From Eledone cirrhosa (taxonomy: Eukaryota): a stretch of DNA of 64,000 nucleotides. Location of the stretch: assembly GCA_964016885.1 (NCBI GenBank), contig OZ024742.1, positions 137,578,001 through 137,642,000 of the forward strand, read 5' to 3'. The position numbers and the translations under genes are program-made. How positions within the stretch are numbered: the first letter of the stretch is position 1; every line of letters begins with the position of its first letter. Below, one piece after another: positions 1,133 through 60,712 of the stretch. Under the pieces are notes generated by a model, which did not search any database, had not been told where the DNA came from, and saw only the letters and a list, made by a program, of their open reading frames with translations.

Positions 1133-1166
1133 GTTGAAAAGGAGTGGAAAAGATGGGAAAGACCAC

Positions 1167-3122: not shown

Positions 3123-3331
3123 TTTTTTTCAAAGAAATTTTTGGATAATAATAAAAGTTAAAATTTTGGGCACAAGGCCCCAATCTTTTTGGGTGTCCTT
3201 TTCGGAAAACAATGTATGTGTGCTTATAAACAGTTTACAATAAAATTTTCCATAAATGGCAATTTTTAAACAAACGGATATAACAAACCTTTGCGGAGCT
3301 CACGATAATACGATTTCCTACGTAGGTCGCC

Positions 3332-3375
<44 letters not shown>
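3332..3375. repeat. (AAT)n microsatellite between two Tx1 copies
   Basis: Pure AAT repeats between the 5' end of T-A and the 3' end of T-B. Confidence 0.95.
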
Positions 3376-3376
<1 letters not shown>

Positions 3377-10584: not shown

Positions 10585-10587
10585 TAA

Positions 10588-11196: not shown

Positions 11197-11245
<49 letters not shown>

Positions 11246-11658
11246 TTTCTTGTGTTTTGTCGGATGAGTGTGTATATGTCAATCCACGTGTACAGTCTGT
11301 CTATGTTTATTTTCAATAGCGGAAAGTTTCTGCGTGCACCTATGTGAGCATAAATGTGATTATGCTTATGTATGTGTATGTCTGCGTTTGCGCGTGTGTG
11401 TGTCGGAATATCCACGTGTAATCCGGTCTAGAGAGATGTTGTCGAGAGAGAAGTACGCTCTCCGGAGGAGGTCGTGTGGACAGAGCGGAAGTGGGGAATG
11501 GGCAGGATAAAGGTGGAAGTTAGAGGTGGTGTCACACGCAGAAAGGAAGTGATTTAGAAAAGAGCTGTGGTCGTAGCGTATGTTTATGTGTGTATGTCTA
11601 GTAGGTACAGATGAGAAGGTAGTAGTGGAGATTGTTCATAGCTGGGGGGCTGCGTATG

Positions 11659-37798: not shown

Positions 37799-37877
<79 letters not shown>

Positions 37878-37923
37878 TACCACTACTACTACTACTACTA
37901 CTACTAATACTACTACTACTACT

Positions 37924-37965
<42 letters not shown>
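37799..37965. repeat. Compound (TAC)n(TAA)n microsatellite; left boundary of the retroelement nest
   Basis: Direct reading. Confidence 0.95.
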
Positions 37966-40219
37966 CCAGGCAGGGTGGATTGAGACAGTACAGAGGGAGA
38001 TCGGTGAGCAGGCACACCAACAAACTGATTTGAGTATCACAGTTGAAACTCTTAAGGGGCAGGCCAAAAAACTAACCAACTGGAAATCACCAGGCCCAGA
38101 TGGTGTGCAGGGGTATTGGATTAACATTTTAACATCCCTCCACCCGAAGCTGACGGCCATGTTCAATGACTGCTTGGTGTCGGGTGAGGTGCCAGAGTGG
38201 TTGACAAAAGGTACCACAGTTCTGATAATGAAAGACCGAATCAAGGGTAATGATGTTACCAACTATAGACCTATCACATGTCTGTCCGTAATGTGGAAAC
38301 TGTTGACGAGCATTATGTCTGAGGAAATCTACCATCACCTCCACACAAACAACTTGTTACCGGACGAACAGAAAGGATGCCGAAAGAAGTCACGTGGTAC
38401 AAAGGACCAGTTGCTTATTGATAAGATGGTAATGGGGAATTGCAGGAGGAGACACACTGATCTTGCCATGGGATGGATAGACTACAGAAAGGCATTTGAC
38501 ATGGTGCCTCATTCTTGGATCACCAAAAGCCTGGAGATCTTCAGGGTGGCAGATAACATCAGACAGTTGCTGGGCAGGAGTATGGGGTCCTGGGAGACAG
38601 AGTTGACATCAACTGGAGTATCCTTGGGAAGCGTGAAGATCAAGAGAGGTATCTTCCAGGGAGATAGCCTGTCCCCTCTGTTGTTTGTCCTTGCCCTGAT
38701 GCCCTTGATCATTATGCTGCGAAAAGTGAGAGCAGGATACAAGTTGGGAAAGGGAGAGCTTACCATCAATCACCTCCTCTTCATGGACGATCTTAAGCTC
38801 TTCGGGAAAAGTGAGAAGGAGTTGGATGTGCTTGTTGACACTGTCCGTATTTTCAGCAGTGATATATGTATGCAGTTTGGTATTAGTAAATGTGGAGTCA
38901 TTGTGATGAAGAGGGGTAGGTTGAGCAGAAGTAACGGGATCCAGATACCAACAGGTGAGATGATAAAGGAAATTGACTCTGAGGAAGGATACAAGTATTC
39001 GGGCGTTCTGGAGGCTGATGGCATAAAGAACAAAAAAATGAAGGAATTGTTAAGAACTGAATACATTCGGAGAGTAAGGAGCGTATTGAAGTCACATCTG
39101 AACAGCAGAAATGCCATAAGCGCAGTAAATTCCCGAGCTGTGTCTATTATTAGGTACAGTGCGGGAATTCTGAGATGGAATGTTGCTGAATAAAAAGAAA
39201 TGGATAGGAAGACTAGAAAGCTATTGACTATCTACAACATGTTCCACAAGAGGAGTGATGTCGATAGACTCTACCTAAGGAGATCTGAGGGTGGAAGAGG
39301 TCTTATCAGCATAGAGGACTGTGTTCAGATGGAGAAAAACAACCTATACAAATACGTGACCTATAGTAAGGAGCCAATGCTCATAACTGTACTGAAGGAG
39401 GGGACAGTAGGCCAGGGGATGTCCAAGGAGGAAATAACATCAAGGAGGAAGAGCAGCCTTAAGGGAAAATCCCTTCATAGTACCTTCTTTGAGAAAACTG
39501 AATTTAGAGATCCACAGACATGGAACTGGTTGAGAAGAGGTGACCTCAAAAAGGCTACAGAAGGAATGCTAATGGCTGCGCAGGAGCAGGCCCTCAAAAC
39601 GAAGTGGTTGAAGCACCATATTTACAAGGAGGAGGCTAGCCCACTGTGCAGGATCTGTGGAGAGAGAGAGGAGACTGTGGCTCACATTGTATCTGAGTTT
39701 AAACACCTAGCCCAGACCCACTATAAGGGCTGGAGACATGATGTGATGGGGAGGGTGATCCACTGGCACCTGTGCAAAGTGAACAATTTACCACATTCTG
39801 AGAAGTGGTATGAGCATAGGCCAGAGGCGGTGACGGAGAACGATCAGGTGAAGGTGCTGTGGGATTTTAGGATACAGACGGACAAGAAACTGGAACACAA
39901 TAGACCTGACCTGGTGGTTGTGGACAAAGAAAAAAGATCGTGTCTGATTGTGGATGTGGCCTGCCCATTCGACACGAGAGTGCAAGAGAAGGAGAGGGAG
40001 AAAATTAACCGATACCAGGACCTAAAGTGGGAGGTGAAAAGGATTTGGAACTGCCATGAAGTCAAAGTGATCCCGATTGTCATAGGCGCACTGGGGACTA
40101 TCTCCAAAAGTTTCCAGGGATGGTTAAAGAAAATCGGCCCCGTCACGCTTTTTGGAACGCTTCAAAAGGCATGCTTGCTTGGAACAGCAAGAACCCTCCG
40201 ATACGTCCTGAATATCTGA
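37966..40219 (+). pseudogene. RT plus RLE polyprotein with one in-frame stop at 39191-39193
   Basis: KSPGPDG, YRPITCL, DYRKAFDMV, GIFQGDSLSP, LFMDDLK; CRIC..ETVAHIVSE, RHD, RPDLVVVD..IVDVACP..K..RY. Confidence 0.88.
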
Positions 40220-40293
40220 GGCTGCAGGTAGTGGCTTGATATTAATTCCAACGGACTTTCCAGTTAACCAACATCAATGACTGAGATTCAAGG
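37966..40293 (+). mobile_element. R4/Dong-like non-LTR retrotransposon D1, 5'-truncated
   Basis: Contains RT, a CCHC motif and a restriction-like endonuclease, then a short 3' UTR ending in (AAT)n. Confidence 0.88.
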
Positions 40294-40334
40294 AATAACA
40301 ACAATAATAATAATAATAATAATAATACTAAATA

Positions 40335-41107
40335 GAACTGGTTGAAAAGAGGAGATCTTAAAAAGGCTACAGAAGGAATGTTAATAGCTGCGCAAGAGCA
40401 GGCCCTTAAAACGAAGTGGTTGAAACACCATATTTACAAGGAGAAGGCTGGCCCACTGTGCAGGATCTGTGGAGAGAGAGAGGAGACTGTGGCTCACATT
40501 GTATCCGAGTGCAAACACCTAGCCCAGACTCACTATAAGGGCTGGAGACATGATGTGATGGGCAGGGTGATCCACTGGCACCTATGCAAAGTAAACAATT
40601 TACCACATTCTGAGAAGTGGTATGAGCATAAGCCAGAGTCGGTGATAGAAAACGATCAGGTGAATATGCAGTGGGATTTTAGGATACAGACGGACAAGAA
40701 ACTGGAACACAATAGACCTGACCAGGTGGTTTTGGACAAAGAAAAAAATCGTGCCTGATTGTGGATGTGGCCTGCCCATTCGACACGAGAGTGCAAGAGA
40801 AGGAGAGGGAGAAAATTAACCGATACCAGGACTTAAAGTGGGAGGTAAAAAGGATTTGGAAGTGCCATGAAGTCGAAGTGGTCCCGATTGTCATAGACGC
40901 ACTAGGTACTATCTCAAAAAATTTCCAGGGTTGGTTAAAGAAATTTGGCCCTTTCACGCTTTTTGGAACGCTTCAAAAGGCATGATTGCTGGGAACAGCA
41001 AGAACCCTCCGATACGCCCTGAATATCTGAGGCTGCAGGTAGTGGCTTGATATTCATTTCAACAAACTTTCCAGTTAACTAACATCAATGACTGAGACTC
41101 AAAGAAC
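40335..41107 (+). mobile_element. R4/Dong-like copy D2 (3' 0.8 kb, frameshifted)
   Basis: Homologous to the D1 3' end; (AAT)n on both sides. Confidence 0.9.
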
Positions 41108-41143
41108 AATAATAATATTAATAATAACAATAATAATAATAAT

Positions 41144-42247
41144 TGAACAAAAAGAAATGGATAGGAAGACTAGGAAGCTATTGACTATCTACAACATGTT
41201 CCACAAGAGGAGTAATGTCGATAGACTCTACTTAAGGAGATCTGAAAGTGGAAGAGGTCTTATCAGCATAGAGGACTGTGTTCAGATGGAGAAAAACAAC
41301 CTACACAAATACGTGACTGATAGTAAGGAGCCAATGCTCAGAATTGTACTGAAGGAGAGGACAATAGACCAGGGGATGTCCAAGGAGGAAATATCAACGA
41401 GGAGAAAGAGCAGCCTTCATGAAAAATCCCTTCATAGTACCTTCTTTGAGAAAACTGAATTAAGAGATCCACAGACATGGAACTGGTTGAAAAGAAGAGT
41501 CCTTAAAAAGGCTACTGAAGGAATGCTAATGGCTGCGCAAGAGCAGGCCCTCAAAACGAAGTGGTTGAAATACCATATTTATAAGAAGGAGGCTAGCCCA
41601 CTCTGCAGGATCTGTAGAGAGAGGAGAGTGTGGCTCACATTGTATCCGTGTGTAAACACCTAGCCCAGACACATTATAAGGGCTGGCGCCATGATGTGAT
41701 GGGCAGGGTGATCCACTGGCACCTATGCGAAGTGAACAATTTACCACATTCTGAGAAGTGGTATGAGCATAAGCCAGAGTCGGTGATAGAAAACGTCACG
41801 TGAAGGTGCTGTGGGATTTTAGGATACAGACGGACAAGAAACTGGAACACAATAGACTTGACCTGGTGGTTTTGGACAAGGAAAAAAGATTGTGCCTGAT
41901 GTTGATGTGGCCTGCCCGTTCGACACGAGAGTGCAAGAGAAGGAGAGGGAGAAAATTAACCGATACCAGGACTTAAAGTGGGAGGTAGAAAGGATTTGGA
42001 ACTGCCATGAAGTCAAAGTGGTCCCTATTGTCATAGGCGCACTAGGTACTATCTCAAAAGGTTTCCAGGGATGGTTAAAGAAAATTGGCCCCGCCACGCT
42101 TTTTGGAACGCTTCAAAAGGCATGCTTGCTGGGAACAACAAGCACCCTCCGATAAGTCCTGAATATCTGAGGCCGCAGGTAGTGGCTTGATATTCATTTC
42201 AACAAACTTTCCAGTTAACTAACATCAATGACAGAGACTCAAAGAAC
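41144..42247 (+). mobile_element. R4/Dong-like copy D3 (3' 1.1 kb, frameshifted)
   Basis: Homologous to the D1 3' end; (AAT)n on both sides. Confidence 0.9.
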
Positions 42248-42523
42248 AATAATAATAATAATAATAATGATAATAATAATGTTTTCTTTATTAACCACAA
42301 GGGTTCACATAAAGTAGACATTAAGAACAGTACAGGACAATACAGGACGGTACAAATGGGCATTTCTGCGTGTAAAAAAACAGAGGTTGAAATAAAATAA
42401 CAAAGAAAAATTCCCCAATAGGGGGGAGACTTCCAAGGGACATTTGTGGAGAAAGCCCATTAAAAGACCACAGTGGCCCTGACCACCAGGGCAAGTGCCC
42501 TCTCCCAGTTTTCCACCTTTAAT

Positions 42524-45500
42524 TTACAGACACATACTCAGAGAAGGCCCATTCATTCGGGCCATACTTGCTTCTCTCACCCATCTTTCAACAAAATGCT
42601 GGGAAGAGAGCACTTCCCTCTCTACCCTGATTTTCCTTTTCAAATGAAATTTGAAAAAGTTAATCAGGGCATCACCGAAGAGGTAAGTGCTCGTCTTCAG
42701 CCCTTTCAAACGTGTCCACCATACTATCTCTTTCGCCATGGCCACCAGACAGATAAAAACTGCCTGCCCTTCCAGGCTAAAGGAAGGGGGCGGGGCAATC
42801 CTCACGATGGACTCAGCTGATAGCTGGATAGGTCCTACACGTGACAGCAGGTGTTCGACATAAACCCACAAGTCAGCAAGGCTCGGACACTGGACGAGTG
42901 CGTGCAGGACGGTTTCGTCGCCCTGCGCTCATCTCGGACATGCCCGGCTGACGGCACCTCCATGCCTGTAGAGTTTATCCCGAACTGGCAAAGCTCCTCG
43001 GTAGCACTGCCAGGGATTTCTGGAAGTTGTCCATAGGCCCCGGCCCGAAAGTCCTTCCGAAGAGATTGGCTAGTTGATTTTCGTCGACGCCTAGAGTTTC
43101 TCCAAGTACGTCGTCGCTCTTCCCCTCCACTAATCCCCTATAGAACGCCAAGGTGGAGTTTCCACCGATCACATTGCCCGATTGGTCGAGGGCTGTGAGC
43201 GCCTGAAGACATTCCAGTCTCCAAGCGCTCCCTCTCGGTCTTCGCTTGACCCAGGACTGCAGCTCCGTCAAGGAGACGAGCTGGGGAAAAACGTGTCTTG
43301 CAAACGGCGACCACACCTGATCACCGTCGAGGAAGAGGTGGAGATGTCGTAGCCTGAGCGCGTGTCTGCGCATCATCAGCCACGGCATGCCCAGCCCTCC
43401 ACGTAGCGGGTGTTGACAGCAGATGGACCGCCTGACCATCGGAGCGCGTCCCTTCCACAAGAAGCGAAAGAGCAAACGCTCCAGCGCAGTCAGGCGGGGC
43501 TTAGGACAAGGTACGACGGTCAGGCGGTAGTAGATGACGGATGCGATGTACGCATTCGCCACCTCCGCTCGACCTTTCAGGGATAGCTTCCTCTCGGCCC
43601 ATTTCTGGGTGAGAGAAGCCACCCTGCTCGTCACCTCGTCCCAGTTTTTGTCCGTCTGGAGGTCTGGACCGAACCAGACCCCTAGCAATTTAACCGGTCC
43701 GTCCGTCCAGCGCCCGACGACGCTGTTGGACGGCATGGACCTGCCTCTCCAGGTGCCGAGCTGCAGGCCCACTGACTTTTCCTGGTTGATCATTGCTACT
43801 GTCACCGCTTCGTATTCTCTTAGTGTAGTGCCGATCGCCTCGATGTGTTTGGCGTTCGACACCACTACGGTGACATCGTCGGCATATGCTGACACGGATC
43901 TTCCGCATCCTAGTTCGCGCGGGACCCCCCCCCCCTCAACGTCTCCAGTTTGTGCAGTAATGGCTCGAGAGTCAATACGTACAATAGGGACGAGAGGGGA
44001 CATCCTTGGCGGAACGAGCGCATGATGTTGAACGGTTCCGAAAGGTAACCGTTCACTCTCACTACAGAGCAGATGTCGCTGTGCATGGCAGCGATCCAGC
44101 CTCTGAAGACGGGCCCAAAGCCAACCGCCCTCAGGACTGCCGTTAGGTAACGATGGTCGACCCTATCGAAGGCTTTCGACAGATCTAAATTGATCAAAGA
44201 CCCACCCGTGCCAGGTTCCCTAGCTACCCTCTCTACGATGTATCGCATGAGGTGGAGGTTGTCGTGGATGGATCTGTCGGGAATGGCGCATGTCTGTGCC
44301 TCTCCCACCAGACCACCAACGACAAGCGCCAACCTCTTTGCTAGCACCTTGGCCAAAATCTTGAACTCTGTGTTTAGCAGAGTTATGGGCCTAAAATTAT
44401 CTATGTTATCCCCCTTGTTCGGATCCTTTCTCAGCAGCGCCACCGCTCCTCGGCTCACAGAGCTGGGAATTCTCCCGTTCTGTTGCCAGTTGCAGTAGAC
44501 GTCCGCCAAGAGGCCTCCGAACAAGTTTGGCATTTGTACGTAAAGTTCATAGGGCAGACCATCCAAACCAGGCGATTTACCCCTTATGCAACTAGTCATT
44601 GCATCCCGTACTTCAGCGGTTGTTATCGGCTTTTCGCAACACTCCGCCTCAGTGGCCGAAAGCCGCGGCAGTCCGTCGAGGTAGACACTAAAGTCCATCC
44701 CTCGATCCGGCCCGCCACTGCCCCCGAACAGTTGAGCGAAGTGTCGCTGAAAAGCTTCACACATTTGCCCGGGATCGAGTAGCATGCGCCCGTCGTGGTC
44801 CACCAAAGACCGGATCGTGGCTTTGTTGCCACGACGCGCCTCCGCCACTTGGGCCCATTGAACGGCTTTCGTCCCCTGGTGTCTGAGAGCACGCACCCTA
44901 GCTCTGACAACGCAGCCTTCGTGCTTTGCATTGAAGAATTGGTCAAGGGCCAATTTCGCCGCAAGTACGTCGGTCGCGATGCCTTTGCTAAGCGCCTCAT
45001 CTAATTTTCTAACTAATTCTCCCTCTGCTCTATTTTTCTCTATTGCTAAAGTCTTACTAAACCTAATGGACTCTATTCTAATTGCTCTTTTCAGAGCAAA
45101 CCACCACTTGTTGTTGACGATGGCCCCCGTCAACGCCCGCTTAACTAGTTCGCTAATCCGGTCTCTGTAGGCCTTGCGCGCTGGTAAGGACGCGTTTAGC
45201 TTCCAGTAGCCGGGTCCTCGTCTATGAAGCCTATCTAAGTCAAGCACACAGATCACGAATTTGTGGTCCGTGTAGCTGACTATCTTGAATTGTGGACAGC
45301 CTATGCTAGACCTATCTATTTCCCTACAAAATACTCTATCTAGATATGATCTGGATGACCCTATGCGATTTGTCCAAGTCCACATTGGTACATTCGGGAA
45401 ATCCATTCCGTACCTGTCAGACAGTTCAAAACGTCTGAGCAGGTTGGTGAGACTCTTGCACCCTCCTTCCCTATCCACTAATCCCACACAATCCCAGCGT

Positions 45501-45944
45501 GCATCTAAGATCCCGTTCCAGTCGCCCACTAACACTAAAGTGCGGGACGTTCCAAGAAAGGTCTCCAGACGCCGGAAGAAATCAGGCCGCCCTGCTCCTG
45601 TCGGGGCATAGACGGCCACTAACCTGGAAGCTTGCCCGTCTCCGCTGGTCACGTCCAGCACCACCAACTTACCTTCTGGGTCCAGGAAGATGGCCCGTAT
45701 GGCAAGATCCAAACCTCTCCGAAAAAGCACAGCAACTCCTCCCCCCCGATCCCGGACGGCTGGGAGATGCGTACACATCGTAGCCGCCGAAGATCGGTGC
45801 GAAAGCCTGTGCTTCGGAGATTCTGGTCTCGCTGATGGCCACTACATCTATGTTTAGTGACCTGAGGTCGTTGAGCAGGTGGCCCTGCTTCCATGACGAC
45901 CCCAAGCCACGCGCATTTATGCTGCCTATTCTGAGTGAGGTCAT
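42524..45944 (-). pseudogene. Tx1 ORF2 (APE + RT + C-terminal Cys/His motif), frameshifted
   Basis: GDWN, TDH, SPGLDG, FRPITLLN, KAFDRV, QGCPLS and YADD motifs. Shifts near 45745, 43930 and 43010. Confidence 0.9.
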
Positions 45945-45978
45945 GTTGAAAAGGAGTGGAAAAGATGGGAAAGACCAC

Positions 45979-47944
45979 TTACCTTACTTCTCGTAGGGGA
46001 AGTACGGTTTTTCCATCCTTTTCACTGCTTGTGGCCTCCTCAGGAAGGATGTCCTTATAAATCCTCCTGGAGAGTTCTTGTCGGAAGTCTCCGATGTCTT
46101 TTGGGAATTTTTGTTTTAGTGTCATGTACGTTTTCTGTGTGATGCGAGTGATTTGTATGTGTGGAGGTGGTGTGAATTTTGGGGTTGTTGTGTAGTCTTT
46201 TTCTGTGATGCTGGTGTTGTGTTGGATGTAGTGTAATAATTGCTTGTTGTTCAAATTTAATGCTGTGTAGTGTGTTTCGTTTTGGTTGTTTTGTTTTGTT
46301 TGCGTTTGTTGTGGGTTTGTTTCTGTTTCGCATTTTGGTGACTTTTGTGGTGTAGGTGATGGTGGTGTTGGAGTTAATGATGGTGATGGTGTTGGTGTTT
46401 GGGTTGATGGGGTTGGTGATGCTGGTGTGGATGGTGGCATATCTGTCCTAACTTTTTTGTTTCTTAGTTTATTTGTTTCCCTCTGTGTTTTGTTTTTGGA
46501 GGGAGAAGGAAGAGAATTTTTTCTTTTTTGGTTTCTTTTTTTTTTTCCGGATATCGTTTCCCACTCCTCGTCGTCACAATCTGTCTCCAGTTGTGATAGG
46601 CCGGGGAGTGGAAAATCCTCCACAGCCGTTAGTTTTGGTTGTGGTGTGGTGGATGGTGTAGGCGCTGGTGCTAGTTCTGAAGCGTTGGGTGGTGGTGGTG
46701 TTGATTTTGCTGGTGGTGGTAGTGGTGTTGGTTTTGCTACTGTTGCTGGGGTTGTTGCTGTTATAGTTGCTTCTGTTGTTGCTGCTACAGTTGTTGCTGG
46801 CATCTCTGCTACTGGTGGTGTTGATGGTTGTGTCACTGGGGTGGGTAGGAGAGGTGGCCTCAACCTTTTAGCCTGAGGGCAGAAAGCCCTTAGGTGGGTT
46901 CCTTCACCACAAACGACACACCTAGGTCTTCTGCCCTCGACAATTACCGTGAGGTGGCTGCCGTCAGTGAGGTCTATTACCTCTGGGATCTCCTCAATGC
47001 TTTTTTGGTCCGCTTGGATCAGGAGCTCCATCCCAGATCCGGACCAGTTTTCCTGCTTTTCTTTTGCTATTGTTATTATTTTCGTGTTGGCCTCGATGCC
47101 GGCGAGGACAGCCGCTATTAGCCAGGGAATTTCGATGGCCGGTGGAACGTGGGTTACCCTGATCTTTACGAGTCTCTGGCCACAATAGCTTGGGACGAGT
47201 GTGAAGTCGTCACTTTTTAATGGGGCCATGGAGTGTTCTCTAGCCTCCTCTGTTGTTTCAAAGAACACATCCACGGTTCCATACTTTTGCCCACGTCTGA
47301 TGTGGGTTTTTCTTGCCCACACATGTCCCAAAGCTTTTTGGATTTGGGACTCGGATGCCCGTTCCACTCGGCGCGATTTTACATTTATTGTTCTATACGA
47401 CACGGTGCATAGGCGCCGATGCTCCATTTTATTAGGTGGGGGGAAGGGGGGTGAGGCTGACCCTCTACCCATCTTTCTTTACCATTTGTTTGGCATTTTA
47501 TAAATCTTCTTGAGTTACGGTAAATGCTTCGAATTGTTTTGCTAATCTGGCGAAACTGAGGGGGGGGGGGGTTTATAATGTCATTGTTGTTGTTGTTGCT
47601 ATCGTTAATATTAATTTTAGTTTCAGTTGTGGTGGTGACGTCAGTCGTCTTTGGTGGGGAAGAGTCCATTTTGCTTGATTTCATTTCGACATCACGAGTT
47701 AATTTATTTTTTTCTTCTTTTGTTTCTGTTGTCGCGGTGGTGGTGGTGGTGGAGGCTTTAACACCTGCAGTCATTGGTAATGGCGGGAAATGAATGTCTG
47801 CCTGAGACAAATTTAAAATATTGCTACTGCTTATATTTTTTTTTGTGTTGGCAAACGTAGTAACATTTACAATGGTGGTGTCGGTGTGAGGTGTTATTTT
47901 GTGAGGAGTCTTTCAGCTGCTTCGTGCAGAGGTGAAGTAGCCAT
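45979..47944 (-). pseudogene. Tx1 ORF1, frameshifted in G/C runs
   Basis: Near-identical to 1167-3122; indels at about 47440-47570. Confidence 0.9.
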
Positions 47945-48431
47945 TTTTTTTTAAAGAAATTTTTTGATAATAATAAAAGTTAAAATTTTGGGCACAAGGC
48001 CCCAATCTTTTTAGGTGTCCTTTTCGGAAAACAATGTATGTGTGCTTATAAACAGTTAACAATAAAATTTTCCATAAATGGCAATTTTTAGACAAACGGA
48101 AATAACAAACCTTTGCGGAGCTCACGATAATACGATTTCCTACGTAGGTCGCCAATAATAATAATAATAATAATAATAATGATTTCTTTATTAACCACAA
48201 GGGTTTACATAAAGTAGACATTAAGGACAGTGCAGGACAATACAGGACGGTAGTAATGGGCACTTCTGCGTGTAAAAAAAAAAAACAGAGGATGTAACAA
48301 AAAAATAACAATGAAAAATTCCCCAATAGGGGGGTGACTTCCGAGGAACATTTGTGGAGAAAGCCCAGTAAAAGGCCAAAGTGACCCTGACCACCAAGGC
48401 AAGTGCCCTCTCCCAGTTTTCCAGCTTTAGT

Positions 48432-51400: not shown

Positions 51401-51828
51401 GTTCCAGTCGCCCACTAACACTAAAGAGCGGGCCGTTCCAAGAAAGGTCTCCAGACGCCGGAAGAAATCAGGCCGACCTGCTCCTGTCGTGGCATAGACG
51501 GCCACTAGCCTGAAAGCTTACCCGTCTCCGCTGGTCACGTGCAGCACCACCAACTTACCCTCTGGGTCCAAGAAGATGGCCCGTATGGTGAGATCCAAAC
51601 CTCTCCGAAAAAGCACAGCAACTCCTCCCCCGATCCAGGACAGCTGGGAGATGCGTACACATCGTAGCCGCCGAAGATCAGTGCGAAGGCCCGTGCTTCG
51701 GAGATTCTGGTCTCGCTGATGGCCACTACATCTATGTTTAGTGACCTGAGGTCGTTGAGCAGGTGACCCTGCTTCCATGACGACCCCAAGCCACGCGCAT
51801 TTATGCTGCCTATTCTGAGTGAGGTCAT
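48432..51828 (-). pseudogene. Tx1 ORF2, multiple frameshifts
   Basis: MTSLRIGSINARGL start, RT YADD, and CPRC..ETVLH..VQC. Confidence 0.9.
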
Positions 51829-51830
51829 GT

Positions 51831-54006
51831 TTAAAATAGAGTGGAAAAGATGGGAAAGACCACATACCGTACTTTTCGTAGAGGAAGGATGGTTTTTCCA
51901 TCCCTTTTCACTTGATCGTCTGGTGAAGGGACCGTTGAATCGTCCCTTCGGCTGGTCGTCGGCTCTTCTATGAATATGTCGGAATATACTCTCCGGTTGA
52001 GAGTCCCTCCTAGGTCTCTGAAATCACCAACTGCGTTGGGGAATTTCGTTTTAATGTTTGTGTATTGTTTCTGTGCTATTTTTAGCAGTCTTATGTTAGT
52101 TGGCGTTTTGATTGGTGCTGGTATTATGTAGTCGTGCTGTGAAATGTATGTGTGTTCAATTATGTAAGTCATTAGTTTCTTTTTGTGTGAATTTATTGCC
52201 GTGCATTTGTTTTTCTGGTGGTGGGGTACGGTTCTGCAATTTTCTTGTCGTTGTTGCTGGGTGTGTGTGTTTTGTCGTTGTGTTTGCGATGTTGGTGCTT
52301 GTGGTGGTGGTGCTGAAGGTGTTGTTGTTGTTGGCGGTGGGGTGGTCGCCGGTGGTGATGGTGGTGCTAGTGTGGGTGGTGATGGTGTTGGTGGTGTTGC
52401 TGCTGTGAGTCTCTTTGCAGTAGCCTTTACCCTTTTTTCATTTCTTTCCTCCCTTTTCGAAGGCGACGATGCGCTGCTTCTGCGTTTGTGCCTTCTTACG
52501 ACTTTTGACATACCTCTTCCAACTCACACTCCATGTCTGATTTTGTGAGGTCGGGGAGGGGTACCAGTTCCACTCTTTCACTTGTTGTTGTTGGTGATGT
52601 TTGCACTCGAGTCTCTGTTGCAGCTGCATTTGGTATTACTGTTGTTATTGTTAATACTTCCACTGCTGCTGCTGTTTTTGATTTCCGTGGCGTGGGTATG
52701 GGTTCCACGGACCTATCGTTCCTGGTTGCCGCTTGTCCTGTTGCTGGTAGCCGTGGAGCCGGTTTCGGAAGGAGGGGGGTTTTCTCCTTTCTCAGGGTCT
52801 TCTCGTTGCAGAAGGCCCTGATGTGAGTCTTCGATCCACAGCGAAAGCATTTCGGGCGTTTGCCCTCAACACTTATGGGCAGTTGAGTGCCGTTATCGAA
52901 GTCTATCACATCCGGGATAGCTTCGATGCACTCCTGGTTGGTTTGGATTAACATCTCAATGGAGGTGCCGACCCAATCTTCTCTTACTTTTTTCTGTACT
53001 TGCAGTACAGTTGTTTTGTCCTCGATTCCGACGAAGACAGACGCGGCAGCCAAGAAGAGGCCATCCCGGGGGTGGACGTGGGTCAGTTTGATCCTCACAA
53101 TTTTTTGCCCGCAGTAGGAGGGCACCAACACCATTTCCTCGCTCCTTAGGGCCACTAAGGATTGAGCCTTTGCCTCTTGGGGTGTGGCAAAAACACGTCT
53201 ACGGTGGCATATTTCTTGCCTCGGGTGATGTGCGTTTTCCGCTGCCACACACACCCTAAGGCTTTTTGTATTTTAGCCTTTGTGGCTCTTTCAACCCTAC
53301 GGGATTTTGTGCTTACTGTTTGGTACGTGACCGTACAGTGCTGTTGGGTTTCGAAAAATTTTTCGGCTGCCTTGCAGATTGCTCGGTGTCCGGTTTTCGT
53401 CACTATCTTCTTCGCTTCCTCTAATTCCTCATTTGTTATAAGGATGGTTTCCAGGTTCTTTGCGATACCTGCAAACGAGATTGGTTTTTCTTTGCTGCTG
53501 CTGTTGTTGTTGTTGTTGTCGTCAGAGCTGCTGTTACTTTTGTTGTTCCTGCAGGTACTACGACTACTGCCGCCGCCGCTGTTGCTGTGGTTGTTGTTGT
53601 TGTTGCTGCTGCTGCTGTTGTTGTTGCTGTTGCTGCTAATGCTGTTGTTGTTTATGCTGCTGTTGATGCTGTTACGGCTGCTACTGTTGTTTTCCTTGTC
53701 ACTGTTGCTGCTGCTGCTGTTATTACGGCTACTACTGCTATTATTCCTGACGTCAGCCGAATGAAATGGGTTTTCGTATTTCCCGCACACCTTTTTCGTC
53801 GTTGTCGTCGTCGTCGTGGAGAAATCTTGCACGCTTTGCACGTGATTCTTCTTTTCTGGCGTCGCTTGCGAAAGAGAAGGGAAGGGGAGAGACACATTTA
53901 GAGAAGGGAGGGATAGAGACAATTTTCTCTCTGCTGTAGTGACGATTGAGGAAGAAGAAGACGGAATGAGTGGGAGTGACTTATGAAAATTCTTTTTCGT
54001 AGCCAT
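51831..54006 (-). pseudogene. Tx1 ORF1 of a second type, frameshifted
   Basis: Three fragments (53155-54006, 52496-53254, 51831-52511) colinear with T-A ORF1; Asn/Ser-rich N-terminus. Confidence 0.85.
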
Positions 54007-54223
54007 ATTTTTTTTTTTTGTTTAAAATAAATATTTGGCACAAAACCCCAATAAGCGGTTATTTAACCCCGAAGGGCCAAATAACGGGCAGAAAGACCCC
54101 TCTCACGAGGAGGAGGGTGTTTTTGTCTACAAGTTGGTTAAAGTTTTAAACAATTTACAATTGTTATAGCGCTCAAAATTTACAATACCTTACAGAGCCG
54201 AGCCTCCGTCAACCATAGCATTC

Positions 54224-54252
<29 letters not shown>

Positions 54253-54256
<4 letters not shown>

Positions 54257-54436
54257 TGTTTCTACTTTAGGCACAAGGCCAGCAATTATCCAGTGCATTA
54301 CTGGTACTTTATTTTATCGACCCCGTAAGGATGAAAGGCAAAGTCAACCTCGGCGGGATTTGAACTAAGATCGTAAAGGGACGTAACTATGCTGGAAAGC
54401 ATGGCGTCCGACCCTCTACTGATACTGCCAATCCAC
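54253..54436 (-). mobile_element. tRNA-derived SINE family S, full length
   Basis: A-box TGGCAGTATCAG, B-box GTTCAAATCC, body GACTTTGCCTTTCATCCTTACGGGGTCGATAAAATAAAGTACCAG, and 3' CCTTGTGCCTAAAGTAGAAACA(ATT)n. Confidence 0.92.
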
Positions 54437-54445
54437 AACAACAAT

Positions 54446-55265
54446 GAGAAAGAACAACCTTCATGAAAAATCCCTTCATCGTACCTTCTTTGAGAAAACT
54501 GAATTTAGAGATACACAGACATGGAACTGGTTGAACAGAGGAGACCTTAAAAAGTCTACAGAAGGAATGCTAAGGGCTGCGCAAGAGCAGGCCCTCAAAA
54601 CGAAGTGCCTGAAACACCAAGGATCTGTGGAGAGAGAGAGGAGACTGTGGCTCACATTGTATCCGAGTGCAAACACCTAGCCCAGACTCACTATAAAGGC
54701 TGGAGACATGATGTGATGGGCAGGGTGATCCACTGGCACCTATGCAAAGTAAACAATATACCACATTCTGAGAAGTGGTATGAGCATAAGCCAGAGTCGG
54801 TGATAGAAAACGATCAGGTGAATGTGCTGTGGGATTTTAGGATACAGACGGACAAGAAACTGGAACACAATAGACCTGACCTGGTGGTTTTAGACAAGGA
54901 AAAAAGATCGTGCCTGATTGTGGATGTGGCTTGCCCATTCGACACGAGAGTGCAAGAGAAGGAGAGCGAGAAAATTAACCGATACCAGGACTTAAAGTGG
55001 GAGGTAAAAAGGATTTGGAACTGCCATGAAGTCAAAGTGGTCCCGATTGTCATAGGCGCACTAGGTACTATCTCAAAAAGTTCCCAGGGATGGTTAAAGA
55101 AAATTGGCCCCGCCCCGCTTTATGGAACACTTCAAAAGACATGCTTGCTGGGAACAGCAAGAACCCTCCTGAATATCTGAGGCTGCAGGTAGTGGCTTGA
55201 TATTCATTTCAACAAACTTTCCAGTTTCCAACTTATTTTCATCATTGACTGAGACACAAAGAACA
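54446..55265 (+). mobile_element. R4/Dong-like copy D4 (3' 0.8 kb)
   Basis: Homologous to D1-D3, with small deletions. Confidence 0.9.
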
Positions 55266-55285
55266 ATATTAATAATAATAATAAT

Positions 55286-58200
55286 TGTTTCTACTATTAG
55301 CCACAAGGGGAGACATGTAGGGGACAGTGGGGGTTTACAATAGGGTCGCGTAAAAGTGCACAATGGCAATACATATTTAACAATGAAGATATAAAACTAT
55401 AAAATAAACTATGCATAAATATAACAAAATAAATTCCCCGATAGGGTTGGATGAACCATCCTGCGCTTCTAGGACACCCAGGGAGAGCACCACTCTCCTC
55501 AAGTTAGCTAGCCTATAGGCGCATGGTCAGAGTAGGCCCATTCATACGAGCCATTCTCGCCACATTCATCCACCTTTTAGCAAATGTACTGGGGGGCAGC
55601 ATTTCTCTCTCCACCCTCACCTTCCTTTCCAGGTGAAACTTGAAGAAGTTGATGAGGGATTTGCCGAAGAGAAAAGTGTCTGTCTTCAGTCCTTTTAACC
55701 TGGTCCACCATATAACCTCTTTCGCAACTGCCACCAGACATAGCAAAATTTCCTGCCTAAGGAAGGCGGCGGGTCGATCTTCACTATGGACTCGGCTGAT
55801 AGCTGTTCGACATAACTCCACAAGTCAGTAATGCACGGACATTGGACAAGTGCGTGCAGAACGGTTTCGTCGTTCTGTGCGCATCTTGGGCAGGTCCGTC
55901 TGACAGCATTTCCGTGCCTGTAGAGTTTATCCCGAATCGATAGTGCCCCCCGGTAGCACTGCCAAACGAGGGATTTCTGGAAATTGTCCATAGTCCCCGG
56001 CTCAAAAGTCCTCCGGTACAGACTGGTCAGTTCGACTTCGTTGAGGCCCAACGCTTCTCCGAGCGCATGATCGCATTTACCCACCACTAATCCTCTATAG
56101 AACTCGAGAGTGGAAGTTCCACTGATCGCATTGCCTGCTTGGTAGAGGGCAGTGAGTACCTGGCATCATTCCAGGTGCCAATCATCCCGTCTCGGTCTCT
56201 TCTTGACCCAGGTCTGCAGCTCAGTCAAAGAAATGAGCTGCGGAAAGGCCCCTCTGTTAAACGGTGACCACATCTGTTCACCGTTGAGGCAGAATATCGG
56301 GAGATGTCGCAGCCTCAACGCATGTCTCCGCATCATTAGACACGGCATGCCCAGCCCTCCGCGTAGATGGTGCTGGCAGCAGATGGACCGCCTCACCAAC
56401 GGAACTTGTCTCCTACACAAGAATTTGAAGAGGTGCCGTTCCAACTTGACGAGGCGTGGACGGTGGCAAGGCACGACGGTCAGGTGGTAGTAGATGAAGG
56501 ACGCGATGTACGCATTCGGCACCTACGCGCGTCCTTTCAGTGATAGCTTCCTCCCAGCCCATTTTTGGGTGAGACAGGCTACTCTGTTCGTTACCTCGTC
56601 CCAATTATTTTCCATCTGGAGGTCTGGTAAAGCAACTTTACCGATCACTCCGTCCAGCGCCCCACGACGCTGTTGGACGTCATGGGCCTGTCTCTCCATG
56701 TTTCGAGTTGCAACCCCACTGACTTATCCGGGTTAAGTTTGGCTCCTGTCAACCTTTCATATTCCTTTAATAAGGTGCCTACCACCTCAATTTCTGAGGT
56801 GTTCGACACCATCACGGTGATGTTGTCCGCATAAGGCGACACTGCCTCTCCACGTCCCGGTTCGAGCGGGATGCCCTGCAACAGCTCCAGCTTCCGCAGT
56901 AAAGGCTCGAAAGTCAATACGTACAGAATTGAAGAGAGAGGCACCCTTGACCGACCTATCGGGAGAGCCGAAATGGTTCCGAGAGGTGGCCATTAACGTT
57001 GATCACCGAGCGTATGCCGCTGTGCTTTGCAGCGATCCAGCTTCTGAAGAGATGGCTGAAGCCAGCTGCTTTGACGCCAAACTTCAGATACCGATGGCCG
57101 ACCTTATCGAATGCTTTCGATTGATCTAAATTGATCAGTGCCCCCCTGAAGCCAGGTTTACACCCTACCCTCTCTATGATGTATCGCATGAGGTGGAGAT
57201 TGTCGTGTATGGACCTGGCTAGGATTGCGGAAGTTTGTGGCTCCCCAACCAAATTCTCGACGACAAGCGCCAATCTCTTTGCTAACACCTTGGCCAAAAT
57301 CTTAAACTCTGTGTTGAGCAGAGTTATGGGCCTGAAGTTGCCTAATGTATCCCTCTTGTTCTCGTCTTTCCTTATCAGCGTCACCACTTCCCTGCTCACA
57401 GAACTGGGAATACTCCCATTCTGCTGCCTGTTGCAGTAGATTGCTTCGAGGAGATCGGAGAACAAGTCTGGCATATTTACGCAAAGCTCATAGGGCAGGC
57501 CATCCAAACCAGGTGTCTTGCGCCTCATGCAGCCCACAAGGGCGTCCTGAATTTCGGCTGAAGTAATCGGCCTTTCACAGCGCTCAGCGTCGACCGTCGA
57601 GAAGCGCGGCAAGCCGTGAAGGTAGGGACTGAAATCCGCTACTATCTCTGACTCGCCACTCTCCCCGAACAACTGAGCAAAGTGTTGGCGAAAGGCGTCA
57701 CACATCCGCTTGGAATCGCTTATCTTGTGCCCGTCTCGGTTCGGCAAAGACCGAATTGTGGTTTTATTACCACGCTGCGTATCCGCCACGCGGGCCCATC
57801 GAACAGCTTTGGTTCCCTCGTTTCTCAGCGCACGCGCCTTAGCTCTGACAATGCAGCCTTCGTGTTTCGCATTGAAGAAATGGTCTAATGCCATTCCCGC
57901 CGCTAGCACGCCACTTGCAATGCCACTACAAATAGCCTCATCTAACTTATTTACCAGCTCCCCCTCCTTTCTATTTTTCTCTAACGCTAGTTCTTTGCTG
58001 AACTCTATCGAAGTTACTCTAATCTCTCTTTTGAGATCCCCCACCATCTGTTGTTGATGATCCCCCCTGTCAACGTTTGCTTAAATAAATTGTTGACTCG
58101 GTCCCTGTAAGCCTTAAGTTCCGGAAATGACATGTTCAGCTTCCAGTAACCCGGTCCTAACCTTCGCGTTTTATCTAGGTCGACCGTACATATCACAAAT

Positions 58201-60201
58201 TTGTGATCTGAATAGGAGACCGTTTTAAAAAGTGGGCCGCCTACACTATTTCTATCTATTTTCCTAATGAAGATCCTGTCTATATACGATCTAGATGTCC
58301 CCATTCGGTTGGTCCATGTCCATACTGGCACATTGGGGAATCTAGTCGATACCTGTTAGACAGTTGGAACTGGCTGAGTAGGTGCTTGAGGCTTTTGCAC
58401 ACCCCTCTCCTATCGGTTACTCCCACACAATCCCAGCGTGCGTCTAAGATGCCATTCCAGTCCCCCGCTAACAGTAAAGGGCGAGACGTACCCAGAAAGG
58501 TCTCCAGGAGCCTAAAGAAGTCCGGTCGTCCGGTCCCTGTAGGGGCGTAGATGCCCAGCAGTCTAAAGGCACCACCTTCGCTACTGCTCACATCCAAGAC
58601 CACCAACTTAGTGTCCGGGTCCTGGAAGATCGACCTTACCTCGAGATTCATTCCTTTCATAAACAGCACTGCCCCCCCCCCCATTCCCGGCCTGCTAACA
58701 GATGTGAAGATCTGATAGTCGTCGAAAATGTGGGCTAGTGCGAGCGTGTCGGAAAATCTGGTCTCGCTGACGGCAAATATCCATTTCCAGTGACCTTAGG
58801 TCATTGAGCAGGCGACCATGTTTCCAGGGTGACCCTAGGCCGCGAACATTTAAACTTCCTACTCTTAATATGGCCATGTTGGTAAGCTAAGAGAGAGAGA
58901 GAGAGGGAAGGTTTACTTACCTCCCGGGGTCTTGTGAATATCGGGTGGTTCGACCTCCATAGTTGGTGGGGTTTCTTTTGGGAACCCCTTTAAAAGTCTC
59001 GATGTGGGTTTCACATTCGGGGTTCCCACGTCTTGAGGAAAGCTCTCTGGAATTTCTTTGAATGAATTGAGTGACATTCGGACCAGAAGCAAATCTCCTG
59101 GAACGCAAAATGTGCTCATTTCAAAAATCTCCCCCTCTCTTTCACTATCCTCGCTTCGTGCTAAGAGGGCCATCAGTTTACTGTTGGCCATTCTGACAAG
59201 CACGAAGTTATTAACATTTTGTTGGTGTGGTTTTATTTGTTTTCGTTTTGGTGACTATGGTGGTGATGGTTTTGGTGGTGTTGTTTCGGGTATGTCTGTG
59301 TTTGTTGTAGGTGTGGTGTCTGCAATTTCAAGTATTTGTGTGTTTATTTGTACCTGTGTTTGTTTAGGTTGTTTGCGTTTCGGGGATTGTGGAGGTGGTG
59401 TCGATGTTGCTGTTGGTGCTGATGTTATTGGGGAAGTGTTTGCGTTTGTGGTGTCTGTATTTTTTGTTGTGTATGTTTTTGTGTTTTGTTGGGGCTCTTT
59501 TTGGTGAGTTTTCTCTGGGTTTTTTTTGCACCTTTCGGTTTTCCTTCATCTTCGCTGTTGGAAGACAAAGGGTCTGTGGCTGTGAGTGTCTCTGTGTCTG
59601 TGTGTGCGTTTATTGTTTTGTCTATGTGTATAATTGGGCGGGTTAGGATTGGGAGAGCTTTCCTCATTTTCCCCTTGGATTGGTTTTGGTGTTGGTGGTG
59701 ATCTGGCTATTTTTGGTGTTGGTGTCCGTGTCTTTGTTGGTGTTGTTTTTGGTGGTGGTGGTGCAGCTTTCCGTGCTGACACTGGCGTTGGCAACAAAGG
59801 AGGTTTGCGGCCCCTGCATTTTTGAGCTGAGGGCAGAGGCCTGCAGATGCGTTGCTTCCCCGCAGACGAAGCAGCGTGGCCTTCTTCCGTCAGTGATTAG
59901 TTGGATTGTTGTCCCGTCCTGCAGGCGGGCAGAATCCGGTATGTTGTTCATGTCCTCCAGTTTCATTTGGAGAAGAATCTTCAAATCCATTCCGCACCAG
60001 TCCTCTCTCTCTGTCCTTTTAATATCCATGAGGGTAGTGTCTGTCTCCTCCTCGATTACGCATCCCAGCAGCCACCATATGTTCATTCCTGGTGGGATGC
60101 TGGGAATGCGGACCTTTACTGTCCTTTTACCAATGTAGGACGGATGCATGATAATGCGTTTACTTCTGCAGGGGGTCACTGAGTGCTTAATAGCGAGGGC
60201 C
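55286..60201 (-). mobile_element. Older Tx1-type element T-E (same subfamily as T-B), 5'-truncated within ORF1
   Basis: ORF2 remnants 55513-58877 (MAILRVGSLNVRGL, GDWN, YSDH, KAFDKV, YADN). ORF1 remnants 58913-60201 (CFVCGEATHLQA). (AAT)n on both sides. Confidence 0.9.
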
Positions 60202-60220
60202 TAATAATAATAATAATAAT

Positions 60221-60405
60221 GATTTCTACTTTTGGCACAAGCCCAGCAATTATCCCAGTTCATTACTGGTACTTTATTTTATCGACCCCGTAAGGATGAA
60301 AAGCAAAGTTAACCTCGGCGGGATTTAAACTCAGACCATAAAGGGACGTAACTCTATGCGTCAAAGCATGGCGTCCGACCCTCTACTGATACTGCCAATC
60401 CGCCG
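60221..60405 (-). mobile_element. SINE family S, full length
   Basis: Same structure as 54253-54436. Confidence 0.92.
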
Positions 60406-60422
60406 ATAATGATGATAATAAT

Positions 60423-60527
60423 GATTTCTAGTATAGGCACAAAGCCAGTAATTTGGGGGAGGGGAAAGTCGAATAAATCGACCCCAGTACGTTACTGGTG
60501 CTTTATTTTATCGACCCCGTAAGGATG
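60423..60527 (-). mobile_element. SINE S-related subfamily, 3' fragment
   Basis: CATCCTTACGGGGTCGATAAAATAAAGCACCAG..GGCTTTGTGCCTATACTAGAAATCATT. Confidence 0.8.
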
Positions 60528-60565
<38 letters not shown>

Positions 60566-60584
60566 TACTACTACTACTACTGTT

Positions 60585-60712
60585 GTGGAGTTCAAATCCC
60601 GCCAAAGTTAACTTTGCATATCATCCTTACGGGGTCGATAAAATAAAGTACCAGTAATGCACTGGGTAATATATGGCCTTGTGCTAAACGTAGAAACATT
60701 TATTATTATTAT
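60585..60712 (+). mobile_element. SINE family S, 5'-truncated
   Basis: B-box GTTCAAATCC through GGCCTTGTGCTAAACGTAGAAACA(TTA)n. Confidence 0.88.

What the first reader, a model, noticed from the sequence alone, without database searches (positions are those of the whole stretch)
37799..60580. 22.6-kb nest of TAA-microsatellite-associated retroelements with strict, opposite strand polarity
Seen: between two (TAC)n tracts lie four R4/Dong-like copies, three Tx1 elements and three SINEs. None interrupts another; junctions are (AAT)n or a short AAC/GAT-containing variant of it. All RLE elements read with (AAT)n on the sense strand, while all Tx1 and SINE copies read with (ATT)n. The same holds at 3332-3375, and for the + strand SINE at 60585, which is followed by (TTA)n. 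Established: Dong (R4 clade) targets TAA repeats, and the Tx1 group contains microsatellite-specific families. Inference: an APE-type and an RLE-type endonuclease have converged on the same microsatellite and nick opposite strands. Each insertion regenerates target, producing a self-extending safe-haven array.
Basis: partly seen in the sequence, partly recalled or inferred. Interest (0 to 1): 0.7.

Follow-up and report, generated by a model that had tools for sequence, protein, structure and literature searches.

The report
Two retrotransposon clades share one microsatellite
Ten jumping-gene copies of three kinds are stacked in one short AAT repeat, and across this genome the two long kinds sit in such repeats facing opposite ways, likely because their unrelated enzymes cut opposite strands, while the short kind lands mostly outside such repeats and likely borrows the enzyme of one long kind.

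Summary
Observation confirmed: four 5'-truncated RLE (Dong/R4-like) copies on +, three Tx1-like LINEs and three SINEs on -, joined by AAT-type tracts, none split. It generalises: 579 of 621 exact Tx1-A 5' ends genome-wide follow (ATT)3 in phase; 12 of 15 position-sampled RLE truncation junctions follow (AAT)n; all 21 close Tx1/RLE pairs in 44.7 Mb face opposite ways. Nest copies resemble copies elsewhere more than each other, so they inserted independently. Correction: the SINE is not microsatellite-specific (at most 2,465 of 37,790 heads follow (ATT)3); it makes 14-19 bp duplications starting ATTAT and shares a covarying 3' hairpin with the Tx1 families, so it is probably Tx1-driven. Truncated Tx1 copies are less strict (7 of 22). 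Opposite-strand nicking is inferred from TPRT, not assayed; 'safe haven' is untested. Dong on (TAA)n is known; a Tx1 lineage on (ATT)n was not found in the papers searched. The scan has reported this system many times elsewhere in this genome; added here are genome-wide counts and a possible shared 5' leader between the two clades. New variant of a known kind.

The parts
37799..37924 (.). (ACT)n tract, left bound of the nest
37926..37965 (+). (TAA)13 tract, 5' flank of RLE copy 1
37966..40293 (+). RLE (Dong/R4-like) copy 1, 5'-truncated; RT, zinc knuckle region and PD..D..K nuclease; one in-frame stop
40294..40331 (+). element terminus plus (AAT)8
40332..41107 (+). RLE copy 2, 5'-truncated
41108..41143 (+). 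imperfect (AAT)n
41144..42247 (+). RLE copy 3, 5'-truncated
42248..42280 (+). (AAT)n with one GAT; tail-to-tail junction of RLE copy 3 and Tx1-A
42281..48153 (-). Tx1-A, full length (5.87 kb): 5' UTR, ORF1 with CCHC knuckle, ORF2 APE-RT-zf, frameshifted in this copy; 3' hairpin at about 42293-42305
48154..48180 (+). (AAT)9; reads (ATT)9 before the Tx1-A 5' end and after the Tx1-B 3' end
48181..54223 (-). Tx1-B, full length (6.04 kb): ORF2 close to Tx1-A (96% aa between intact copies), different 5' UTR and ORF1; frameshifted in this copy
54224..54256 (+). (AAT)11
54257..54436 (-). SINE 1, near full length, with 3' hairpin
54437..54445 (+). AACAACAAT linker, head-to-head junction of SINE 1 and RLE copy 4
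54446..55264 (+). RLE copy 4, 5'-truncated
55265..55285 (+). imperfect (AAT)n
55286..60201 (-). Tx1-C, older family (about 72% DNA identity to A/B), 5'-truncated inside ORF1
   Evidence: L292 continues further 5'
60202..60220 (+). (TAA)6
60221..60404 (-). SINE 2
60405..60422 (+). GAT/AAT linker
60423..60527 (-). SINE 3, 5'-truncated, related subtype with a different 3' part but the same kind of hairpin
60528..60581 (.). (ACT)n tract, right bound of the nest
60585..60699 (+). SINE 4, 5'-truncated, outside the ACT bound, followed by (TTA)5 at 60700-60715
1..3331 (-). second Tx1-A copy (97.7% to the nest copy), cut by the window edge
3332..3375 (+). (AAT)14 between the Tx1-A 5' end and a Tx1-C-like 3' end
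3376..4602 (-). Tx1-C-like 3' fragment

Best explanation
The nest is ten separately related retroelement copies stacked in one AAT repeat, with the Dong/R4-like LINE always reading (AAT)n and the Tx1-like LINEs and SINE reading (ATT)n, likely because each inserted by target-primed reverse transcription from a nick on the opposite strand. Shown: anatomy, flanks on both sides, polarity, closer kinship of each copy to copies elsewhere, SINE duplications of 14-19 bp starting ATTAT, and a shared 3' hairpin (loop CUUGU) in Tx1 families and SINE. Inferred: the RLE protein nicks the (ATT)n strand, probably guided by its N-terminal Myb/SANT-like domain, and primes on its own AAU-ending RNA. The Tx1 APE protein nicks the (AAT)n strand at a short AT-rich word and primes on RNA ending in AUU repeats after recognising the 3' hairpin. 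Each insertion leaves repeat on both sides, so both kinds keep finding target beside earlier copies. The SINE is a passenger of the Tx1 machinery with a much looser target; it enters nests only as a minority, always in Tx1 orientation. The strong preference of full-length Tx1 copies for tracts of seven or more units probably needs more than the nick site (tail-primer pairing and 5' joining to the repeat).
For: Tx1-A 5' ends: 579 of 621 exact 21-mers genome-wide are preceded by ATTATTATT in phase; 30 of 30 best hits and 30 of 30 first places on C1. Tx1-B 5' ends 30 of 30 (the best-hit sets include the window's own copy). In 29 full-length copies with both flanks, none has a non-repeat duplication, so they sit inside existing tracts (one hit was pure repeat). 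RLE: 3' flank AAT-type in 30 of 30 best hits and 29 of 30 positional copies; true 5'-truncation junctions on (AAT)n in 14 of 17 and 12 of 15, at many different truncation points. Polarity: in the first 44.66 Mb of C1 (100 Tx1 and 78 RLE ends), 21 Tx1 ends have an RLE end within 250 bp, 21 of 21 opposite (random placement 0.08); within 7 kb 32 of 34 opposite, Tx1-Tx1 19 of 20 same, RLE-RLE 17 of 17 same. Independence: 9 of 9 nest copies tested match a copy elsewhere better than a nest neighbour. SINE: at most 2,465 of 37,790 heads follow (ATT)3; 13 of 17 measurable positional copies have 14-19 bp duplications; 11 heads after (ATT)3 and 0 after (AAT)3 among 63 in fetched loci. Hairpin: 82% of cells paired, 3 of 4 pairs change on both sides, 0 of 500 shuffles reach it, slid partners score lower. 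Enzymes: APE-RT-zf with L1 ORF2p as nearest solved relative; RT-CCHC-PD..D..K with R2 nearest; Myb/SANT-like N-terminal fold. Recent activity: ORF2 open for 1,152 codons in 4 of 18 Tx1-A copies.
Against: 5'-truncated Tx1-A/B copies are loose: of 22 scorable (read by eye, 2 of 24 dropped because their 5' end was not reached) 7 follow three or more ATT, 6 follow a short ATTA-type site, 8 follow unrelated sequence and 1 follows (AAT)n. 42 of 621 full-length 5' ends lack the exact nine-base prefix. 3 of 17 and 3 of 15 RLE junctions are not on the repeat. Elements do interrupt each other elsewhere (SINE inside Tx1-A ORF1 in L125). The hairpin is only 4 bp, single sequences fold no better than z -2.5 and the SINE ends do not beat shuffles; the ends were collected with a pattern that fixes the loop and two of five covariation measures are not above shuffles. 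The SINE count is inflated by tandem arrays of heads. No nicking or mobilisation assay exists.
Confidence: 0.75

Rival explanations
1. Targeting by RNA, not by nuclease: both enzymes nick AT-rich DNA loosely, and each element survives only where its own repeat tail pairs with the freed 3' end, so polarity reflects the tail sequence rather than convergent endonuclease specificity.
For: The SINE with a tail of one or two ATT units uses short ATTAT sites while LINEs with long tails use long tracts. Truncated Tx1 copies occur at short sites with duplications (L099, L311). An earlier scan note reports close relatives with a TCTA tail in TCTA repeats (e1-9574888, not checked here).
Against: It still needs a nick on the strand that pairs with the tail, so the opposite-strand priming stands. 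The 5' junction phase of full-length copies is fixed and the upstream run has a sharp lower edge at seven units (116 of 127), which tail pairing alone does not explain. The SINE may be moved by another, looser Tx1 family.
Confidence: 0.35
2. The (ATT)n before full-length Tx1 copies is carried by the RNA (transcript starts in the upstream repeat), and the elements insert at short sites like the SINE.
For: Full-length copies are nearly always preceded by the repeat, truncated ones often are not.
Against: 0 of 29 full-length copies show the non-repeat duplication that insertion at a short site would leave; many upstream tracts are the tail or 5' flank of another element.
Confidence: 0.08
3. The array grew by local tandem duplication or unequal crossing-over at the repeats, or is an assembly artefact.
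For: Head-to-tail order of like elements; identical imperfect tracts on both sides of L298.
Against: Nest neighbours are 72-93% alike while copies elsewhere are 86-99% alike; RLE copies have four different truncation points; the pattern recurs on many chromosomes; a short-read contig supports the right edge 60645-61298.
Confidence: 0.04
4. Random insertion followed by selection or passive accumulation in repeat-rich, gene-poor DNA.
For: The window is rich in microsatellites and no host gene was recognised in it.
Against: The far more abundant (TA)n and (CA)n tracts of the window hold no such LINE ends; junction phase is fixed; young intact copies already show the rule; selection cannot set orientation.
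Confidence: 0.03

Closest known systems
Dong (R4 clade; Bombyx, Anopheles, Biomphalaria, Darwinula)
   Same: RT plus C-terminal restriction-like nuclease, N-terminal Myb/SANT-like domain without zinc fingers, (TAA)n on both flanks (PMC7998251, PMC3812793, PMC3774820 passages). Dong-R4 and L1-Tx1 are both listed as recently active in Octopus vulgaris (PMC13282606 Table 1).
   Different: No HDV-like ribozyme was found at the 5' end, whereas B. mori Dong has one. Full-length copies carry a 780-1,100 nt leader whose first 220 nt resemble the Tx1 5' UTRs. At least two RLE families share the tracts with an APE lineage. No named Dong sequence was available for a tree.
Microsatellite-targeting Tx1-clade LINEs: Kibi (TC)n, Koshi (TTC)n, crocodilian families on (TTCC)n/(TTTC)n
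   Same: Two ORFs, APE-RT-zf ORF2, insertion inside a simple repeat, tandem pile-ups (PMC4494074, PMC3812793 passages).
   Different: Target is (ATT)n, not a pyrimidine repeat; ends in a hairpin plus (ATT)n; nearest unnamed relatives are 39-45% identical, named fish LINEs about 30%; the tract is shared with an RLE clade in reverse orientation.
SINEU / Tx1-Mar pair of crocodilians
   Same: A SINE inferred to ride on Tx1 proteins from shared target preference (PMC4494074 passages).
   Different: SINEU ends in poly(A) and has snRNA heads; here the link is a shared 3' hairpin and ATT end, and the SINE's target is much looser than the LINE's.
Stringent SINE-LINE pairs with a 3' stem-loop (UnaL2 type; maize ZmSINE2/3 with LINE1-1_ZM)
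   Same: Short shared 3' end, conserved loop, compensatory stem changes (PMC3747384 passages).
   Different: That review counts only three SINEs with L1-clade tails, all from plants or algae in the passages read; here the partner is an animal Tx1-like LINE and the shared part is about 28 nt.

Membership tests
R4/Dong clade | one ORF with RT, then CCHC knuckle and PD..D..K restriction-like nuclease | tested here: met
   997-codon open frame in L138 shows RT, CxxC..H..C and RPD..D..K (motif reading from recall of R2-type proteins); Pfam RVT_1 and weak zf-RVT; nearest solved proteins are R2
R4/Dong clade | N-terminal Myb/SANT-like domain, no N-terminal zinc finger | tested here: met
   Helical domain at pLDDT about 90; most top matches are Myb/SANT/trihelix domains, but at middling Z 5.0-5.8, rmsd 2-4 A over 50-65 residues; Foldseek and Pfam found nothing; feature taken from PMC7998251
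R4/Dong clade | (TAA)n on both flanks (Dong lineage) | tested here: met
R4/Dong clade | RT phylogeny with named R4, Dong and Rex6 | not testable with these tools
   no named reference among the 120 listed homologues
R4/Dong clade | HDV-like ribozyme at the 5' end (shown for B. mori Dong and Ascaris R4) | tested here: inconclusive
   no Rfam ribozyme match of this kind at E <= 1 and no convincing hit of a rough descriptor; both can miss divergent ribozymes
Tx1 clade | ORF2 with APE endonuclease, RT and C-terminal zinc motif, L1 group | tested here: met
   Pfam Exo_endo_phos, RVT_1, zf-RVT; APE catalytic motifs kept across 13 aligned proteins; nearest solved protein L1 ORF2p
Tx1 clade | ORF1 with RNA-binding domains and a CCHC knuckle | tested here: met
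   CxxCx4Hx4C in all three ORF1s; Atlas look-alikes at 0.90-0.93 are CCHC and ZCCHC3-type RBD clusters (a lead); Pfam itself gave no such hit
Tx1 clade | sequence-specific insertion into a multicopy target | tested here: met
   weaker for truncated copies
Tx1 clade | RT phylogeny with named Tx1, Keno, Kibi, Koshi, Dewa | tested here: inconclusive
   quick ML tree (51 rows): Tx1-A/B plus 7 unnamed relatives form a 100% clade inside a 96% clade with fish LINEs, one with a ZCCHC3-type ORF1, apart from plant L1; no named Tx1 reference and no mammalian L1 in the tree
stringent SINE-LINE pair | shared 3' end with conserved stem-loop | tested here: met
   with the caveats given in the Against line
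stringent SINE-LINE pair | mobilisation in trans by the LINE protein | not testable with these tools
   needs a retrotransposition assay
tRNA-derived SINE superfamilies (CORE, Deu, Meta, Ceph) | tRNA head and superfamily central domain | not tested
   no reference sequences at hand; Rfam found nothing in the window at gathering thresholds

The most novel reading that the evidence does not exclude
Two unrelated retrotransposon clades do not just share one microsatellite on opposite strands, they have exchanged parts: the Dong-like family swapped its ancestral ribozyme 5' end for a Tx1-type 5' leader (about 200 nt colinear, ending at the same AAAATGGC start), and one Tx1 enzyme serves both a strict long-repeat LINE and a loose, very abundant SINE, so target strictness is set by the RNA. 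The genome would then hold a natural experiment with thousands of young copies on how site specificity is built.
Probability: 0.25. Interest if true: 0.72.

Novelty: new variant of a known kind. Interest (0 to 1): 0.5.

Why it matters
Microsatellite-targeting LINEs are known, and so is Dong on (TAA)n. What this adds is an APE-type lineage on the same repeat in the other orientation, with over 9,000 Tx1-A/B ends and over 8,000 RLE ends in one genome and copies with open ORF2. That makes an old question testable side by side: does the endonuclease or the RNA tail choose a microsatellite target? It also names a likely carrier for a very abundant SINE (29 hits in 200 kb of random DNA) through a 3' hairpin, a kind of pairing reported as rare in the L1 group. 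If the shared 5' leader is real, it is a module swap between RLE and APE clades.

Tried and rejected
Empty allele or polymorphism: no relatives are held; three contig sets of one sample and RAD-seq reads were listed, no RNA holder was listed; laying four runs on 59900-61400 was swamped by SINE copies and gave no verdict. HDV-like ribozyme: not found. ORF1 remnant in the RLE leader: only 15-30 nt low-complexity matches, rejected. Foldseek on the N-terminal domain: nothing at E <= 0.001. TSD length of full-length Tx1: hidden in the repeat; only the seven-unit lower edge hints at about 21 bp. First long-tail count for SINEs was off by one base and was redone. The careful tree did not finish; the quick tree is quoted. 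Literature: Kojima and Fujiwara 2004 and Xiong and Eickbush 1993 are not held; supplements of PMC4494074, which list Tx1 targets, could not be read; Repbase is not searchable, and any of these could already hold an (ATT)n Tx1 family. Searches listed no paper on Tx1 in ATT/TAA repeats or on opposite polarity.
Full report
What is there. The window lies at G000:C3:137578001-137642000 in a 3.0-Gb animal genome. I take it to be an octopod cephalopod from recall of the SINE and the (TA)n-rich background; this was not tested. Self-comparison and reading of the junctions give ten elements between two (ACT)n tracts: four 5'-truncated copies of one RT-plus-RLE element on +, and on - two full-length two-ORF LINEs (Tx1-A, Tx1-B), one truncated older relative (Tx1-C) and three SINEs. 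Each junction is an AAT tract or a short variant, and no element is split. All ten tracts of four or more units in the window touch these elements.

Proteins. The minus-strand LINEs encode APE-RT-zf and an ORF1 with a CCHC knuckle whose Atlas look-alikes include ZCCHC3-type RNA-binding clusters. ORF2 is open for 1,152 codons in 4 of 18 complete Tx1-A copies, and one Tx1-B copy has both frames open. A quick tree puts Tx1-A/B and seven unnamed relatives in a 96% clade with fish LINEs, away from plant L1, but holds no named Tx1. The plus-strand element has RT, a CCHC knuckle and an RPD..D..K motif, with R2 as nearest solved relative. Its N-terminal domain folds like Myb/SANT domains at middling Z, the feature described for R4/Dong in PMC7998251.

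Target or tail? For Tx1-A, 579 of 621 exact 5' ends in the genome follow ATTATTATT in phase. Tx1-B gave 30 of 30 best hits. In 40 copies picked by position from the first 100 listed of 9,314 3' ends, all 16 full-length ones follow (ATT)n. None of 29 full-length copies with both flanks has a non-repeat duplication, so the 5' repeat is target and not cargo. The upstream run is seven units or more in 116 of 127 junctions, with modes at seven and eight. For the RLE family (8,198 exact 3' UTR words), true truncation junctions lie on (AAT)n in 14 of 17 best hits (11 ran off the locus, 2 were internal deletions) and 12 of 15 positional copies (12 ran off, 3 internal deletions). Against strictness: truncated Tx1-A/B copies follow three or more ATT in only 7 of 22, a short ATTA-type site in 6, unrelated DNA in 8 and (AAT)n in 1 (read by eye, 2 of 24 dropped).

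Polarity and nesting. In the first 44.66 Mb of C1, 21 of 100 Tx1 ends have an RLE end within 250 bp, all opposite (0.08 expected); within 7 kb 32 of 34 pairs are opposite, Tx1 pairs 19 of 20 alike, RLE pairs 17 of 17 alike. A second RLE family, 34-43% identical in protein, uses the same (AAT)n polarity, and a fourth Tx1 5' end follows (ATT)n. Nine nest copies tested are each closer to a copy elsewhere than to a neighbour, so the nest grew by separate insertions. One of 20 fixed 10-kb samples held another such nest. Nests are therefore common; this one is large, not unique.

The SINE. It is not a microsatellite specialist. At most 2,465 of 37,790 exact heads have (ATT)3 within five bases upstream (numerator double-counts, denominator includes tandem arrays). 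Of 20 positional copies, 17 were measurable: 13 have duplications of 14-19 bp (one mismatch allowed), nearly all starting ATTAT, and 2 sit in four or more units. Where it does meet the repeat it takes the Tx1 orientation (11 versus 0 among 63 heads). Its last 28 bases match the Tx1 ends: a 4-bp stem around CUUGU, an A-rich spacer, GAAA and ATT. Over 14 family-level ends, 3 of 4 pairs change on both sides and 0 of 500 shuffles reach the covariation score; two other measures are not above shuffles, the loop was fixed by my collection pattern, and folding energies alone are weak. Its own end recreates the ATTAT site, and many copies sit behind another SINE.

Mechanism. In TPRT the primer is the nicked strand complementary to the element's sense flank (established). 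Sense (AAT)n thus implies a nick on the ATT strand for the RLE element, and sense (ATT)n a nick on the AAT strand for Tx1 (inferred). Both leave repeat on each side, which explains stacking. Whether the APE domain reads the long repeat is open: the SINE and some truncated copies show a short-word preference, which suggests that RNA tail pairing or 5' joining adds the long-tract strictness. 'Safe haven' was not tested; no host gene was recognised in the window.

A further lead. Full-length RLE copies have a leader of 780-1,100 nt. Its first 220 nt align colinearly with Tx1 5' UTRs and end at the same AAAATGGC. For 14 of 16 leaders the best score against three Tx1 UTRs (56-92) is above the 99th percentile (54) of 1,800 background pieces, within the range of Tx1 against Tx1 (53-105); the other two score 53 and 46. 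A Tx1 UTR profile finds one leader at E 6e-5 and the next at 0.02, the rest at background level. The DNA is AT-rich and no ORF1 remnant was found, so capture of a Tx1 5' end and convergent promoters both remain. No HDV-like ribozyme, which B. mori Dong has (PMC3774820), was found there.

What is known. Read as passages only: PMC4640811, PMC4494074, PMC3812793, PMC3747384, PMC13282606 with Table 1 (29), PMC4758252, PMC4824008, PMC3774820, PMC7998251, PMC9004415, PMC8967140. They give Dong on (TAA)n in insects, molluscs and cnidarians; Tx1-clade Kibi, Koshi and crocodilian families on pyrimidine repeats; a Tx1-driven SINE in crocodilians; active Dong-R4 and L1-Tx1 in Octopus vulgaris without target data in the passages seen. 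Eight searches listed no report of Tx1 on (ATT)n or of opposite polarity, but the key 2004 paper, the PMC4494074 supplements and Repbase were out of reach. Earlier notes of this scan describe the same system at many other places in this genome (68 notes fit); they were consulted after my own reading was set and are not independent support.

Verdict. Real, genome-wide and mechanistically coherent; half of it (Dong) is known, the other half is a new target and a likely new SINE partner for a known class. New variant of a known kind, interest 0.5.

Noticed in passing
L015, L016, L041, L043, L138, L193 (5' leaders of full-length RLE copies): First 220 nt of the RLE leader align colinearly with Tx1 5' UTRs and end at the same AAAATGGC start, followed by a short broken S/T/P-rich frame; possible 5'-end capture between clades.
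   Followed up: partly
window about 47985-48000 (- strand, Tx1-A 5' UTR): A hairpin nearly identical to the SINE/Tx1 3' hairpin (loop CUUGU) sits about 45 nt before the ORF1 start; Tx1-B and a fourth family have a hairpin at the same place with other loops. It could be a second protein-binding site or a captured 3' end.
   Followed up: partly
L093, L170, L304, L313 and about 25 other loci: A second RLE family, 34-43% identical in protein, also reads (AAT)n; its 3' UTR has a hairpin at the same place as in the nest's family with different paired bases.
   Followed up: partly
L295, L300, L316, L095: A fourth Tx1 5' end follows (ATT)n; Tx1-A and Tx1-B share ORF2 but differ in 5' UTR and ORF1, and some copies are A/B mosaics (L129, L281, L292).
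   Followed up: no
L300:about 6090-6345: One truncated Tx1 copy follows the (AAT)n tail of an RLE copy in the same orientation, the only clear polarity exception at a junction among the 40 sampled.
   Followed up: no
L068; G000:C1:10316000-10353000: Long tandem arrays of the SINE head (units of 41-45 bp) form a satellite.
   Followed up: no
window 63416-64000: Tandem repeat of about 82 bp made of two 41-bp halves, running off the window end.
   Followed up: no
window 8107-11427: Four minus-strand open frames of 154-247 codons with no Pfam match; pieces near 10600-11000 resemble 60920-61430.
   Followed up: no
L324 and L338 (metagenome loci): Distant Tx1-like relatives lie next to what I recall as U1 (L324, 5' head) and U2 (L338) snRNA sequence, as described for other Tx1 families; not checked with Rfam.
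   Followed up: no
L125: A SINE sits inside ORF1 of a Tx1-A copy whose ORF2 is intact, so nesting inside elements does occur.
   Followed up: no
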